64,000 bases of DNA, taken from positions 16,802,001 to 16,866,000 of the forward strand of contig CM059448.1 of the NCBI GenBank assembly GCA_030390025.1. The letters run 5' to 3'. The notes beneath the pieces are model-generated. The model did no database searches and was not told the origin of the DNA. It saw nothing but the letters and a program-made list of their open reading frames with translations. How positions within the stretch are numbered: the stretch's first letter is position 1; every line of letters starts with the position of its first letter. The translations under genes were made by a program, and so were the position numbers. Positions 29,397-49,660 of the stretch are shown one piece after another. Origin of the DNA: Squalus acanthias (Eukaryota).

Positions 29397-29517
29397 GTAC
29401 CAGTAAAAGGAGAAGAAAAGAGGAAACAACAGGGAAGAATGTGAAGAGGGCACAGCATGAACTAGACCACAATGGCCTAGTCCCATTGCCTGTCAAAGTT
29501 TGCTTCACTTGTAACAG
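29397..29517 (+). CDS. PHF12: PHF12 exon 5: basic KRRRK stretch and start of PHD2
   Basis: atgcag|GT ACC AGT AAA...AAC AG|gtgggg; 121 nt; (G)[39 protein letters not shown](R). Confidence 0.95.
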
Positions 29518-29922
29518 GTGGGGATTTAATTTCTACATTTTTCTTCTTGCATATAAACAGCTGAATCCCTAGATACAAAAATGAACGTGTGAGCAAAGTG
29601 GGCTGCAAAAAATCTTTCTGCAGTTTTGAGCACTCAAACCTGACTTGTTCAACCTTGATGTCAGTAATGTGCTAGATAATTTAAAGTTGTGTGCAAATTT
29701 GCTAAGATCCTTTGTGAACTGTAACTTATTTAGTTGTGTATCTGCATGACGACAGCCCACCTGTTGAAGAATCTGTCTGTATACTCAGTAATTCTCAGGA
29801 AACTGTATGCAGCTGGCAAACTGTAAATGGTTGACTGTGGTCTTTTACGATGCTGGGCAGATGCAGTTTTTTTTTCTTTTGTTCCATTTCTTCCCCAGCT
29901 CTTCCCCCCACCCCCTCCCCCC

Positions 29923-38960: not shown

Positions 38961-39496
38961 ACTGTCCGTCTAAAAGAGCTGCTATCAAATTTCAGAGGCA
39001 TTTTGTCATTAGCTTTATGGGGCTTTCTCCATGTATCTAAATAATGCATGGAGGAAAAAAGCGGAAGTGCTCTTTGGGGAGATTCCCCAGAGATCAGATA
39101 CTGGAGCAGAAGAGTTGAGTACTGTTAATTATTCAGGACTTGACAAGTACAGAGAATTTGGTGATACGTATCCTGAACATAGGTGCATATCCTGTGAGTA
39201 AACTTCGAAGAGAGGTGCTATATATTGGAAAGCGGGATATCTTCAGATCCACCTTTTTAAATGTTCTGTACCAGAACTCCACAAGTGCCACACCACTTAC
39301 CGCATAGGAATTCACTTTATTCATTTGCTTATGGGTAAGATTTTGGTCAGGAAAGGACAGCAATCTATGATATTTGTATTAATAAGTCTATCCATGGTAT
39401 CTGGATGATTGTTTCATTTTAATGGAGTACCATATGGAGTCAGATGTTCCTCTTCTTGCTTATAGAAGATCATCTGGGTAAAGCACATTAAAAAAA

Positions 39497-39903
39497 GAAA
39501 ATTGGGCAGGGAAGATCGTATGCCAGTAACACAACCTGCTTGATTTTCTGCCCATTATGGGCTCTGATTTGTTCAACCTCCACTTAGCGCCATAGCGCAC
39601 TGGATTAAATCAACAATTCAGTGACGGTAAGGATTAAAAATATATCCCCAATTGGGGGTGCAATGCGTTGTGTGTCTACCTGAAACCTGAGGGATTTTAC
39701 CATCCAGTGGGTATTGTATATAAATTAAATCATTTACCATAAATGCACCAGAGAAAGTTTCAGTTAACAAATTAGTGGGCAAAAAATTGAGTAGGCTCTG
39801 TTATGAGTGTGCTGTCCTCTCCATCCAATTTTTCTCTGTCCTCTGTGCGCTGCGCCCGGGCGTCCCTCTGTGCCTCACTGCAAGTGGAGCAAAATCTGCC
39901 CCA
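39497..39903. mobile_element. Palindromic MITE interrupted at its centre by a ~209-nt insertion
   Basis: Arm 39497-39557 is a decayed reverse complement of arm 39773-39835; right end gcaaaatctgcccc. Confidence 0.6.
39562..39770 (+). repeat. Direct repeat copy 1 (intron 5)
   Basis: About 16 substitutions and one 2-nt indel versus 40965-41175 by manual alignment. Confidence 0.95.
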
Positions 39904-40088
39904 AGCATTTTCATCATCTCCTACTTTTTGTCTTCCACGTATTCTTTCTCTGTAAATAAAATTGTGTAAGTTGCCAACTAAATTTAAAGGACATGGCATT
40001 GGTGAGGGAAAATCTGTGTCTGCTGCCTGTTGCTTGTTTCTGCTTACAACTAAATGATGACTATAGCAATGTGGTATTTACTTTCTAG

Positions 40089-40221
40089 GAGTTGTAGAGT
40101 GGCGCCCCTTGTCCAGTGTGATTACTGCCCATTATTGTTTCACATGGACTGCCTGGACCCACCTCTTACTGCGATGCCAACAGGGAGATGGATGTGCCCC
40201 AATCACATCGAACACGTGGTG
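40089..40221 (+). CDS. PHF12: PHF12 exon 6: PHD2 core
   Basis: ctttctag|G AGT TGT...GTG GTG|gtaagc; 133 nt; [44 protein letters not shown]. Confidence 0.97.
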
Positions 40222-40964
40222 GTAAGCAATCTTGCACTCCTGCCAAATATCTGCACCAAAATTGCCTTTTTTTAAATTTTATATTTTACAATGTTGAACT
40301 GAATGTGATGATTACCATTTGTACGATATATTTTTTAATTGCTGTATGATTTGTGTAGGCATTGCACAAGTTTGCTAATGTTTTCTAGAGTGGAGTGCCC
40401 AAATTATTTTGCGGAATGTTTGGGGAGACAGGTATTAACATTTCGTAGCATTTTTTAAGAGAGTGCAGAGGGAGCACTTTCAGTATATTTTTTCAAAAGC
40501 TTAAATGTCGTACCTTGTAGAAATTTATCCTCACTTTCAATCTTCATCTCTTCTTCGCCTTACCACCAGCTCCCCCGCCCCAAGCCCTGCAATTGTAGAG
40601 GCATTACATAGAGATACCCTGTCGAGTTACGTGAAAATCGGCAGTAATTTCACAGAGAAACCTGCAAATTAGTGCTTTGAACTAGCCTGATGCTGATCTA
40701 GATATGCCAATGCAGGAAAAGTCAGTAGTGAAAGTAGCTTGTCCTGACTTATGTATTGTTAGGATCAGCATCCATGATAGTAGTACTACATGTACATTTC
40801 AAAAATTCTTCATGGAACCAACTTAAAACTTGGTTATAAAACCCAAAGGATTCTTGTTCTATGTTTTTGCAGGTGCTAATTTTTCTCCCTGTCACCTAGT
40901 CTTGGGCCTCTGCACTGAACTGATCATAAGGAGGTATGGGAGAGTGAGTCAGGAATGACTCTTA

Positions 40965-41175
40965 CTCTGATTTGTTCAACCTCCACTTAGCACCATAGCA
41001 CTAGGGATTAAATCAACAATTCAGTGTCAGTAAGGATTAAAAATGTATCCCCAGTTGGTGGTGTAATGCATTGTATGTGTCTACCTGAAACCTGAGGGGT
41101 TTTACCATCCAGTGGGTATTGTATATAAATTAAATCATTTACCATAAATGCACCAGGGAATGTTTCAGTTCACAA
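40965..41175 (+). repeat. Direct repeat copy 2 (intron 6), hairpin-rich
   Basis: About 90% identical to 39562-39770. Confidence 0.95.
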
Positions 41176-41458
41176 TCTTGACATCTTGGCATTTTTGGAT
41201 TAGTTAGAGTAAAGTTGAAGAAGGGAAGATCTGATTTTCAACGGCATGTCCTTCCTAATATGTCTGGAAAGAGTGGTTTTTAATTTCCTTAACTGCTGAA
41301 AACATTGTTCTAATCTCAGGTTGCCATGATATTCTTTCTCTCTTTCTGTACCCATTTTACATGTTTTAATCCGAGATGAGAAATGCAATTCATGTAAAAT
41401 ATTAATTGTTTGAATCAAAATATCTGTAGAATCTTATTTAAACTTAATTTCCATTCAG

Positions 41459-45039: not shown

Positions 45040-46647
45040 CAGTTTCTCTCCGATCTCCCCTCATGATCTCTCTTGCACTCATCTTGTCTGAGACCCACCT
45101 CCTGCTCCCTCGACCCTATTCCCACCAAACTGCTGACCACCCAACTTCCTTTTCTGGCTCCCATGTTAGCTGATATTGTTAACGGTTCTCTCTCCTCAGG
45201 TACTGTCCCCCTCTCCCTCAAATCTGCCGTCATCACCCCTCTCCTCAAAAAACCAAACCTGGACCCCTCTGTCCTTGCAAACTACCACCCCATCTCCAAC
45301 CTCCCTTTCCTCTCAAGTCTTTGAACGTGTTGTTGCCTCCCAGATCTGTGCCCATCTTTCCCGCAATTCCATGTTTGAATCCCTCCAATCAGGTTTCCGA
45401 CCTTGCTACAGTACTGAAACGGCTCTCATCAAACTCACAAATGACATCCTTTGTGACTGTGACAAAGGTAAACTATCCCTCCTCGTCCTTCTTGGCTTGT
45501 CTGCAGCTTTTGACACGGTTGACCACTCCATCCTTCTCCCAATGCCTCTCCACTGTCGTCCAGCTGGGTGGGACTGCACTCGCCTGGTTCCATTCTTATC
45601 TATCTAATCGTAATCAGAGAATCACCTGCAACGACTTCTCTTCCCGCTCCCGCATCGTTACCTCTGGTGTCCCAGAAGGATCTATCCTTAGCCCCCTCCA
45701 CATGTATGCTGACGACACCCAGCTCTACCTCACTACCTCTTCTCTCGACCCCTCCACTGTGTCGAAATTGTCAGACTGCTTGTCCGACCTACAGTTCTGG
45801 ATGAGCAAAAATTTTCTCCAATTAAATATTGGGAAGACCGAAGCCATTGTTTTCAGTCCCCGCCACAAACTCTGTTCCCTAGCCACTGACTCCATCCCTC
45901 TCCCTAACATCTGTCTGAGGCTGAACCACACTGTTCGCAACCTTAATGTCATATTTGACCATGAAATGAGCTTCTGACCACACATCCGCAGCATAACAAG
46001 ACCGCCTATTTCCACCTCCGTAACATCGCCCTGTCTCCGCCCTTACCTCAGCTCATCCACTGCTGAAACCCACATCCATGCCTTTGTTACCTCTAGACTT
46101 GACTATTCCAACGCACTCCTGGCTGGCCTCCCACATTCTACCCTACGTAAACTTGAGGTCATCCAAAACTCGGCTGCCCGTGTCCTAACTCGCACCAAAT
46201 CCCATTCACCCATCACCCCTGTGCTCGCTGACCTACATTGGCTCCCGGTTAAGCAGCGCCTCGATTTCAAAATTCTCATCCTTGTTTTCAAATCCCTACA
46301 TGGCCTCGCCCTTCCCTATCTCTGTAATCTCCTTCAGCCCCACAATCCCCCCCGAGATATCTGCGCTCCTCTAATTCTGCCCTCTTGAGGATCCCTGATT
46401 ATAATCGCTCAACCTTTGGTGGCCGTGCCTTCTGTTGCCTGGGCCTTAAGCTCTGGAATTCCCTGCCTAAACCTCCGCCTCTTTCCTCCTTTAAGACGCT
46501 CCTTAAAACCTACCTCTTTGACCAAGCTTTTGGTCACCTGCCCTAATTTATCCTTATGTGGATCGGTGTAAAAAATTTTGTCTTAAAATACTCCTGTGCA
46601 GCGCCTTGGGACATTTGTCAAAGGCGCTATATAAATACAAGTTGTTG
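45040..46647 (+). mobile_element. 5'-truncated L2 LINE with frameshifted RT
   Basis: SCSLDPIPT, QSGFRP..STETAL, LSAAFDTVDH, GVPEGSIL, YADDTQLY; tail ggcgctatataaatacaagttgttg. Confidence 0.92.
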
Positions 46648-47782: not shown

Positions 47783-49660
47783 TATAGAGTCATAGAGTTA
47801 TACAGCACGGATAGAGGCCCTTCGGCCCATCGTGTCCGCGCCGGCCATCAAGCCCTGTCTAATCTAATCCCATATTCCAGCATTTGGTCCGTAGCCTTGT
47901 ATGCTATGGCATTTCAAGTGCTCATCCAAATGCTTCTTGAATGTTGTGAGGGTTCCTGCCTCCACAACCCTTTCAGGCAGTGAGTTCCAGACTCCAACCA
48001 CCCTCTGGGTGAAAAAGTTCTTTCTCAAATCCCTTCTAAACCTCCCGCCCTTTACCTTGAATCTATGCCCCCTTGTTATAGACCCCTCTACTAAGGGAAA
48101 AAGCTCCTTAGTATCCATCCTATCTATGCCCCTCATAATTTTGTACACCTCAATCATGTCCCCCCTCAGCCTCCTCTGCTCCAAGGAAAACAAACCCAAT
48201 CTGCCAAGTCTCTCTTCATAGCTGAAGCACTCCAGCCCGGGTAACATTCTGGTGAATCTCCTCTGCACCCTCTCCAAAGCGATCACATCCTTCCTGTAGT
48301 GTGGCGACCAGAACTGCACACAGTATTCCAGATGTGGCCTAACCAGTGTTTTATACAGCTCCATCATAACCTCCTTGCTCTTATATTCTATGCCTCGGCT
48401 AATGAATGCAAGTATCCCATATGCCTTTTTTACCACCTTATCCACCTGTTCCGCCGCCTTCAGGGATCTGTGTACTTGCACACCAAGATCCCTCTGACCC
48501 TCCGTCTTGCCTAGGTCTTACCATTCATTGTATATTCCCTTGCCTTGTTAGTCCCTCCAAAGTGCATCACCTCGCACTTTTCCAGATTAAATTCCATTTG
48601 CCACTGTTCCACCCATCTGACCAACCCATCTATATCGTCCTGCAGACTGAGGCTACCCTCCTCGCTATTTACCACCCTACCAATTTTTGTATCATCCGCG
48701 AGCTTACTGATCATACCTTTTACATTCATATCCAAGTCGTTAATGTAGACCACAAACAGCAAGGGACCCAGCACCGATCCCTGTGGTACCCCACTGGCCA
48801 CAGGCTTCCAGTCACAAAAACAACCTTCGACCATCACCTTCTGCCACTGAGCCAGTTTTGTATCCAATGTGCCAAGGCACCCTGGATTCCATGGGCTCTT
48901 ACCTTCTTGACCAGTCTCCTGTGCGGGACTTTATCGAAGGCCTTACTGAAATCCATGTATACTACATCCACTGCGTTACTCTCATCCACACACCTAGTCA
49001 CCCCCTCAAAAAATTCAATCAAATTAGTCAGACATGATCTTCCCTTGACAAAGCCATGTTGGCTAACCCTGATTAATCCTTGCCTCTCCAAGTGGAGACT
49101 GATTTTGTCCCTCAGAATTTTTTCCAATAATTTTCCTACCACTGATGTTAGGCTCACTGGCCTGTAGTTCCCCGGTTTTTCCCTACTCCCTTTCTTGAAT
49201 AATGGTACTACATTAGTGGTTCTCCAGTCCTCTGGCACATCCCCTGTGACCAGAGAGGTTCTGAATATATGTGTTAGAGCCCCCGCAATCTCCTCCTTTG
49301 CCTCACACAGCAGCCTGGGATACATTTCGTTCGGACCTGGGGATTTATCCATTTTCAGACCTGCTGAAACCGCCAATACCTCCTCCCTCTCGATGTTAAA
49401 ATGTTCGAGTATATCACAGTCCCCCTGCCCTAATTTTATGTCTGCATCGTCCTTCTCCATAGTGAAAACAGATGCAAAAAATTCATTTAGAACCCCACCT
49501 ACATCTTCCGGCTCCACACACAGATTGCCACTTTTGTCCCTAATGGGCCCTATTTTTTCCCTAGTTATCCTCTTACCCTTAACATACTTATAAAACATCT
49601 TAGGATTTTCCTTTATTTTGCTCGCCAGTGTTATTTCATGGCCCCTCTTTGATCTCCTAA
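47783..49660 (-). mobile_element. 5'-truncated CR1 LINE (about 1.9 kb), RT in three frames
   Basis: ORFs 48834..49688, 48511..48867, 47864..48481: NYRPVSLTS, QHGF, DFSKAFDKVPH, GVPQGSVLGP, KLADDTK, PHLEYCVQFWSP; (actctatg)n tail at about 47783. Confidence 0.95.

What the first reader, a model, noticed from the sequence alone, without database searches (positions are those of the whole stretch)
39554..41178. Duplicated ~210-nt structured element flanking the PHD2 exon; possible unannotated small RNA and its inserted copy
Seen: two direct copies, about 90% identical, in introns 5 and 6. By hand both fold into a 5' hairpin (ctga-t-ttgtt / aacaa-t-tcag, an internal loop, and an upper stem that pairs differently in each copy), a small middle hairpin, and a 3' hairpin closed by ctgaaac/gtttcag. 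Homology stops right after ACA (aACAa / cACAa), where an H/ACA RNA would end. Copy 2 has an extra basal stem (tcttact/agtaagg) whose 5' strand is missing in copy 1. Copy 1 sits at the centre of a palindromic MITE, flanked by ATTATGGGC (39554-39562) and ATTAGTGGGC (39771-39780), which resemble a target-site duplication. Inference: copy 2 is the source, possibly an intronic H/ACA-like or other structured RNA, and copy 1 is a 5'-truncated insertion. Caveats: a clear H box (ANANNA) appears only in copy 1, there is no poly(A) tail, and I do not recognise the family.
Basis: partly seen in the sequence, partly recalled or inferred. Interest (0 to 1): 0.7.

Follow-up and report, generated by a model that had tools for sequence, protein, structure and literature searches.

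The report
Duplicated shark H/ACA guide RNA candidate
A 212-base stretch in an intron of the shark PHF12 gene likely encodes an uncatalogued small guide RNA, predicted to modify one base of ribosomal RNA, and a second copy of it sits inside a palindromic repeat one intron upstream, with ends suggesting it was pasted in from the finished RNA.

Summary
The duplication is real: two copies, 91% identical, flank PHF12's PHD2 exon, and no third copy was found in the 3.7-Gb genome. Copy 1 interrupts the centre of a dispersed palindromic repeat; both copies also occur in related organisms. Rfam has no match. Best reading: an unannotated long H/ACA snoRNA. Its 3' hairpin has a pocket 14 nt from ACA whose best target among 1,192 rRNA uridines is 18S U1274, equivalent to Xenopus pseudouridine 1279 (modified in frogs, lizard, zebrafish). 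The known guide for that site lives in an extra rpl35 intron that this shark lacks. The 3' domain is spared by variants (2 of 36 in 47 core sites; 8 expected). An H box (ACAGTA) follows the 5' hairpin in four other organisms but is mutated in both copies here. Against: weak folding, 38% GC, no covariation, overall divergence like the flanks, 5' hairpin damaged in several lineages, no expression data. Copy 1 begins and ends at the predicted RNA ends, 1.2 kb from its source, which points to a cis, RNA-templated patch at a palindrome break.

The parts
40966..41177 (+). Copy 2 (source): predicted mature H/ACA-type RNA, 212 nt, in the intron after the PHD2 exon
   Evidence: ends inferred from structure, not mapped
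40967..41024 (+). 5' hairpin; its 3' strand 41012-41019 pairs 8 bp just upstream of 18S U854, but the matching 5' arm is poor
   Evidence: arm-only score reached by 28% of random arms
41027..41032 (+). H-box position: TCAGTA here, ACAGTA (ANANNA) in copy-2-type contigs of organisms C, D, F, G
   Evidence: 41027 T>A
41033..41084 (+). Variable hinge / middle part; deletions of 7+16 nt (D), 3 nt (G), 2 nt (C)
41085..41168 (+). 3' hairpin: 7-bp lower stem, pocket, upper stem 41113-41120/41147-41155
41102..41111 (+). 5' guide arm, 10 bp (7 Watson-Crick, 3 G-U) with 18S 1276-1285
41158..41160 (+). 3' guide arm GAA, pairs 18S 1271-1273, 14 nt from ACA; positions U1274
41172..41174 (+). ACA box
39563..39770 (+). 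Copy 1 (insert): same hairpins and guide arms, ACA at 39767-39769, H position reads ACGGTA, alternative AAAATA at 39637-39642
39493..39556 (+). Left arm of the palindromic dispersed repeat (MITE-like), ending GCCCATT
39557..39562 (+). Extra ATGGGC: fold-back copy of the left-arm end, or part of a 9-10 bp target-site duplication
39771..39836 (+). Centre remnant and right arm of the palindromic repeat
40089..40221 (+). PHF12 exon encoding most of PHD2

Best explanation
Copy 2 likely encodes an intron-processed box H/ACA snoRNA predicted to guide pseudouridylation of 18S rRNA U1274, and copy 1 is a duplicate sitting in the centre of a palindromic repeat one intron upstream, likely pasted in from the processed RNA when a break there was repaired. 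Shown: two copies, the interrupted repeat, the ACA and stems, the base pairing to 18S, presence in related organisms. Inferred: processing from the intron, dyskerin loading, the modification, breakage of the palindrome, and an RNA or cDNA template. The 5' domain and H box have decayed in this lineage, so I put the chance that either copy still makes a stable RNA in this species at about 0.45.
For: (1) Structure-fixed 3' pocket: U1274 ranks first of 1,192 rRNA uridines in both copies (scores 28 and 30, next 18 and 22), 14 nt from ACA, the canonical spacing (PMC8763049). Random or shuffled arms reach that score in 4-10% of 3,000 trials and land on that U in 0.4-2%. (2) U1274 maps to human C1317 / Xenopus Psi1279, detected in two frogs, lizard and zebrafish; about 12% of 18S U's are Psi (52 of 424). 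(3) The published guide lies in an additional rpl35 intron; this genome's single rpl35 match has three introns and no complete H/ACA guide for the site by my scan, yet 18S keeps the U. (4) 47 core sites of the 3' domain carry 2 of 36 variant sites (8 expected, p 0.004; copy-2 lineages 1 of 23, p 0.02); 41157 and 41161 vary on both sides of the GAA arm. (5) ACAGTA 2 nt after the 5' hairpin in 4 of 4 other organisms covering it with a copy-2-type contig. (6) Insert ends fall at a 5' stem base and just after stem+ACA: background 4.6% under rules that pass 5 of 5 true shark long H/ACA RNAs, 1e-5 under rules tuned to this element. (7) A random retro-insertion lands within 2 kb of its source with p about 1e-6, so the event acted in cis.
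Against: No Rfam match. Folding z -1.05 and +0.69, GC 38%, against z -1.3 to -2.2 and GC 53-61% for five true shark U17/U19 genes. No compensatory pair among 54 predicted; copy differences are not depleted at paired sites in unbiased folds (p 0.67, 0.76). Whole element is no better conserved than flanks against organism G (9/213 vs 22/388, p 0.56) and worse against C (6/171 vs 2/324 events, p 0.02). The H-box position is non-consensus in both copies here; the 5' hairpin is broken in C and D. The 3' arm is only 3 bp. I tried five pocket geometries, and the first free scans found nothing above shuffles; with any ANANNA allowed as box, other U's score 27-32. 0 of 5 true controls pass the strict end rule. 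13 variant rows were hidden; a worst case gives p 0.05, and gene conversion could also explain the identical 57 nt. Two other pockets for U1274 scoring 28 or more occur in 528 kb of scanned background.
Confidence: 0.6

Rival explanations
1. Neutral local templated insertion: ordinary intron DNA was copied 1.2 kb upstream into a break at the palindrome by template switching; hairpins, ACA and rRNA pairing are chance.
For: Weak folding, no Rfam match, no covariation, divergence like the flanks. Junction shows a 6-nt fold-back and 1-nt microhomology, as in end-joining repair. Unchecked notes on this genome describe other short intronic templated copies.
Against: Needs several coincidences: ends at stem base and stem+ACA (at most 4.6%), top target on a known vertebrate pseudouridine (about 1% per pocket, about 4% allowing for five geometries; my estimate), spared 3' core, H box in four relatives.
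Confidence: 0.25
2. The snoRNA is real but copy 1 was copied from DNA, and its ends match the RNA ends because single-strand hairpins set the switch points.
For: Short distance favours a DNA template; no poly(A) tail; neighbouring-intron copies are thought not to arise by retroposition (PMC1802619).
Against: No flanking intron sequence was carried at either end; both ends lie within 2 nt of the predicted RNA ends.
Confidence: 0.1
3. The element is a splicing control unit, a 39-nt stop-containing exon (TTAG at 40987-40990, GTAAGG at 41030-41035) duplicated on both sides of the PHD2 exon.
For: Both copies show AG and GTAAGG 39 nt apart with an in-frame stop for the phase of their intron (read).
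Against: The one spliced contig skips both; this part is the least conserved half; it does not explain the 3' domain.
Confidence: 0.05

Closest known systems
pug18S-1279 H/ACA guide (Xenopus, lizard, zebrafish; PMC6984369)
   Same: Same predicted target uridine (human C1317 position); intronic; absent from Rfam hits
   Different: 138 nt and in an extra rpl35 intron, against 212 nt in PHF12; its sequence was not visible to me, so homology is untested
Long vertebrate H/ACA RNAs: SNORA73/U17, SNORA74/U19, SNORA53, Xenopus pugU2-43 (214 nt; PMC5473140)
   Same: 200-250 nt, extra sequence beyond two simple hairpins, ACA near the 3' end
   Different: True U17 (4 copies) and U19 lie elsewhere in this genome and align to the element no better than shuffles; U2-43 pairing not among the top hits
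snoRNA cis-duplication into neighbouring introns (PMC2653536; Xenopus table in PMC6984369)
   Same: Paralogues in adjacent introns of one host gene
   Different: Here the landing site is still readable because it is a repeat with intact copies elsewhere
Type-1 snoRNA retroposons and tailless retropseudogenes (PMC1687206, PMC1802619, PMC5322556)
   Same: Insert limited to the mature RNA, flanked by a repeat-like 9-10 bp
   Different: No A-rich tail, no TT/AAAA site, not dispersed, lands 1.2 kb from the source
Class 2 templated sequence insertions (PMC5110952)
   Same: Tail-less patch at a likely double-strand break with end-joining features; RNA or cDNA template proposed
   Different: Those described come from distant loci; this one comes from the same transcription unit

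Membership tests
Box H/ACA snoRNA | Hairpin-hinge-hairpin-tail fold | tested here: inconclusive
   Both terminal hairpins form when folded by domain but z-scores are weak and no pair covaries
Box H/ACA snoRNA | H box ANANNA in the hinge | tested here: inconclusive
   Not consensus at 41027 or 39624 in this genome; consensus in organisms C, D, F, G; copy 1 has AAAATA 16 nt after the hairpin
Box H/ACA snoRNA | ACA after the 3' hairpin | tested here: met
   ACA 3 nt after a 7-bp stem in both copies; homology ends 1 nt later
Box H/ACA snoRNA | Bipartite pocket placing a target U 14-15 nt from the box | tested here: met
   18S U1274, 10+3 bp, 14 nt; score similar to shark U19 on its 28S target (26)
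Box H/ACA snoRNA | Discrete processed RNA bound by dyskerin | not testable with these tools
   Only contigs were served; they cannot show ends, strand or level
Box H/ACA snoRNA | Purifying selection on boxes, stems and arms | tested here: inconclusive
   3' domain spared (p 0.004-0.05); 5' domain and whole element not
pug18S-1279 | Targets the Xenopus 18S-1279 position | tested here: met
   (predicted pairing only)
pug18S-1279 | Hosted in rpl35, about 138 nt | tested here: not met
   Host PHF12, 212 nt; no similarity beyond chance to the shark rpl35 locus
pug18S-1279 | Sequence homology to the frog/fish RNA | not testable with these tools
   Sequence is in figures that are not held
SNORA73/U17 or SNORA74/U19 | Match to the Rfam model or to the genome's own copies | tested here: not met
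LINE-made snoRNA retroposon | A-rich tail | tested here: not met
LINE-made snoRNA retroposon | Target-site duplication | tested here: inconclusive
   9-10 bp repeat if the centre had collapsed; the intact copies seen keep a spacer of about 6-9 nt
Transposon or SINE | Many dispersed copies | tested here: not met
   2 copies; none in 200 kb of neighbouring DNA; these searches give lower bounds

The most novel reading that the evidence does not exclude
Sharks guide 18S Psi1274 with a long PHF12-hosted H/ACA RNA unrelated to, or relocated from, the rpl35-hosted guide of bony vertebrates, and copy 1 is a fossil snapshot of how snoRNAs spread into neighbouring introns: a freshly processed snoRNA, still at its own gene, is used as the patch for a break in a palindromic element.
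Probability: 0.3. Interest if true: 0.7.

Novelty: new member of a known kind. Interest (0 to 1): 0.5.

Why it matters
It would add a cartilaginous-fish guide for an rRNA modification that mammals and birds lost, and test whether one site can be served by different guides in different hosts. The larger point is mechanism: copies of snoRNAs in neighbouring introns are common, one paper read here calls the embedding mechanism enigmatic (PMC2653536) and another argues against retroposition (PMC1802619). A copy with RNA-like ends in a landing site whose intact form is known makes an RNA-templated cis route testable.

Tried and rejected
Rfam at gathering and E-value thresholds: nothing on the element. 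A 16-nt match at 29640 is at shuffle level. One metagenome hit of a 21-mer lies in what looks like a bacterial membrane-protein gene and does not match the model: chance. Long perfect complementarity to rRNA: longest 10 nt in mature rRNA, as expected by chance. Targets in U1, U2, U5, U6, U12: none stands out; U4, U11, the atac RNAs and U3 were not tested. U2-Psi43 pairing (pugU2-43 likeness): not among the top hits. An alternative 5' geometry using the basal stem and a box at 41040: no target above shuffles (28 of 40 reach it). Expression: no RNA holder on record was listed; 3 of 7 runs guessed as RNA hold the stretch, were chosen for that reason, and their contigs run 37-94 nt past the predicted end; this says nothing either way. 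Organism E gave no usable piece. Not in print as far as searched: phf12+snoRNA gave 3 unrelated-looking papers, seen as listing only; phf12 absent from the Xenopus catalogue text and supplement; pug18S / shark snoRNA terms found only that catalogue. Figures, subscription papers and Taoka's supplementary guide predictions for Psi897 were not seen.

Full report
Observation. Two direct copies lie at 39562-39770 and 40965-41175, with 18 substitutions in 210 columns and one 2-nt gap. The exon between them, 40089-40221, matches human PHF12 residues 280-323; a contig of run X6 joins it to the previous exon (ending near 29517) and to the next across a GT..AG intron. The genome is of shark type (my reading of its repeats; unchecked notes say the same). 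BLAST, two patterns, nhmmer and a covariance model found no third copy in the genome, the window or 200 kb around it; these are lower bounds. Rfam has no match.

Landing site. The left flank of copy 1 matches 6 other places in the genome at 82-84% and the right flank matches their reverse strand, so the repeat is palindromic. Intact copies have a centre CCATT, a spacer of about 6-9 nt, ATGG; none seen has a collapsed centre. At the locus the right junction is the natural spacer remnant plus right arm, and the left junction carries six extra bases, ATGGGC, which are both a fold-back of the preceding GCCCAT and a repeat of the right-arm start. A 9-10 bp target-site duplication is therefore possible but not required. 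There is no A tail. Copy 2's flanks are unique, so copy 2 is the source. Both copies exist in organism C (contigs 12 and 18) and organism G (contigs 5 and 6), whose intron differs from this one by about 6%; the event is older than that split.

Is the source an RNA gene? Whole-element folding is unremarkable (z -1.05, +0.69), weaker than five true shark U17/U19 genes (z -1.3 to -2.2, GC 53-61% against 38%). Folded by domain, both copies give a 5' hairpin that starts 1-2 nt inside the insert and a 3' hairpin closed by 7 bp, 3 nt before ACA; homology ends 1 nt after ACA. Under rules tuned to these ends the background is about 1e-5, but 0 of 5 true controls pass them; under rules that pass 5 of 5 controls the background is 4.6%. 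The honest figure lies between. Two nt after the 5' hairpin this genome has TCAGTA (copy 2; also organism B) and ACGGTA (copy 1); copy-2-type contigs of organisms C, D, F and G, 4 of 4 that cover the site, read ACAGTA, a consensus H box (consensus from PMC10234308, passages). Which copy D's contig represents is not certain, and the polarity of the A/G difference at 41029 is unknown.

Target. Free pocket scans against this genome's 18S, 5.8S, 28S, U1, U2, U5 and U6 gave nothing above shuffles. With the pocket fixed by the predicted fold (five geometries tried), the 3' hairpin of both copies picks 18S U1274: arm 41102-41111 pairs 10 bp with 1276-1285 and GAA 41158-41160 pairs 1271-1273, 14 nt from ACA, the usual spacing (PMC8763049, passages). 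It ranks first of 1,192 uridines (28 and 30, next 18 and 22); shuffled or random arms reach that score in 4-10% of 3,000 trials and choose that U in 0.4-2%. Shark U19 scores 26 on what I take to be its known 28S target. [quoted passage not shown] About 12% of 18S uridines are modified. The one rpl35 match in this genome has three introns (four exons, as I recall for human) and my scan found no complete guide for the site in them; the best relaxed candidate (score 27) has no following hairpin and ACA by my reading. The scan's sensitivity is calibrated on one control only. Caveats: the 3' arm is 3 bp; two other pockets scoring 28 or more occur in 528 kb of background; other uridines score 27-32 if any ANANNA is accepted as box. 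The 5' hairpin's 3' strand pairs 8 bp upstream of U854 (Xenopus Psi859, human Psi897), 15 nt from the H position, with no guide row for 859 in the Xenopus table; but the 5' arm is poor and 28% of random arms score as well, so this is a lead only.

Conservation. Over the whole element the divergence equals the flanks against G (9/213 vs 22/388 listed substitutions, p 0.56) and exceeds them against C (6/171 vs 2/324 events, p 0.02). Differences between the copies are not depleted at paired sites of unbiased folds and no pair covaries (0 of 54). The pattern is uneven: the 47 arm, stem and ACA sites of the 3' domain hold 2 of 36 variant sites (8 expected, p 0.004), 1 of 23 for copy-2 lineages (p 0.02), while the hinge is enriched and the 5' hairpin is average. 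Thirteen rows were hidden and coverage is uneven; a worst case gives p 0.05. The 5' hairpin is damaged in C (41021-41023) and D (41003-41006), each seen in one low-depth contig, and G's copy 1 has 69 unalignable bases in place of 41003-41075. This fits a once-functional RNA whose ACA domain is still or was until recently constrained, and whose 5' half is decaying; gene conversion is an alternative for the identical 57 nt.

Mechanism. Shown: insert, interrupted palindrome, fold-back or repeat at the junction, no tail, 1.2 kb from source. Inferred: the palindrome broke, and repair captured a template whose ends match the predicted mature RNA. A random retro-insertion would land this close with p about 1e-6, so the process acted in cis; a processed RNA still near its gene, or its cDNA, is the simplest template. 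This resembles class 2 templated insertions (PMC5110952, passages) more than tailed snoRNA retroposons (PMC1687206, PMC1802619, PMC5322556; passages), and would be one route to the cis-duplications common in vertebrate host genes (PMC2653536, passages). The argument is partly circular, since the RNA ends are themselves predicted; the target, the H box in relatives and the spared 3' core are the independent supports.

Verdict. About 0.7 that the element is or was an H/ACA guide, 0.6 for the full account, 0.25 that all is a neutral DNA copy, about 0.45 that a stable RNA is still made in this species. It works like an H/ACA guide for a known non-mammalian site; membership is not proven without expression, and it is not filed under pug18S-1279, U17 or U19. 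No report of a PHF12 snoRNA was found; figures and some supplements were not visible. New member of a known kind; interest 0.5.

Noticed in passing
window 39427-39694 joined to 41157-41221 (run X8, contig 8): A 390-nt contig of organism B has copy 1's left flank and 5' letters but copy 2's 3' letters and right flank. It is either an assembly chimera through the 57 identical bases or a real deletion between the repeats that would remove the PHD2 exon.
   Followed up: no
window 41203-41213: Organisms D and G (and the end of the X8 contig) have AATAAA about 30 nt after the ACA; this genome has a short deletion there and keeps AGTAAA. Could be chance or an intronic polyadenylation signal.
   Followed up: no
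window 39589, 39597, 39626, 39667 versus 40992, 41000, 41029, 41070: All four CpGs of copy 1 read CA in copy 2, which has none; organism G reads TG at one. Either copy 2 lost methylated CpGs or copy 1 gained A-to-G changes; two of them complete a GCGC/GCGC stem.
   Followed up: partly
window 40965-41169 (run X9, contig 20): Organism D's 180-nt contig starts and ends almost exactly at the limits of the duplication and lacks 23 nt of the hinge, which may mean its two copies are identical.
   Followed up: no
window 39493-39836; L010-L015, L038: A short palindromic dispersed repeat (arms about 60 nt, 6-9 nt central spacer) is common in this genome and in organisms C and E; I did not name the family.
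   Followed up: partly
window 29640-29726: A 15/16 match to the element's start and a 13/14 reverse match to its end lie 120-200 nt after the previous exon; scores are at shuffle level.
   Followed up: yes
L026-L030 (G000 C16 60745589-60748966; C9 12019336-12019513): Four U17/SNORA73 copies lie in two close pairs, and a weak fifth match sits on another contig, possibly a decayed retrocopy.
   Followed up: no
window 45170-46400 and 47864-48517: Reverse-transcriptase-like open frames of LINE remnants lie in later PHF12 introns (family recognised from memory).
   Followed up: no
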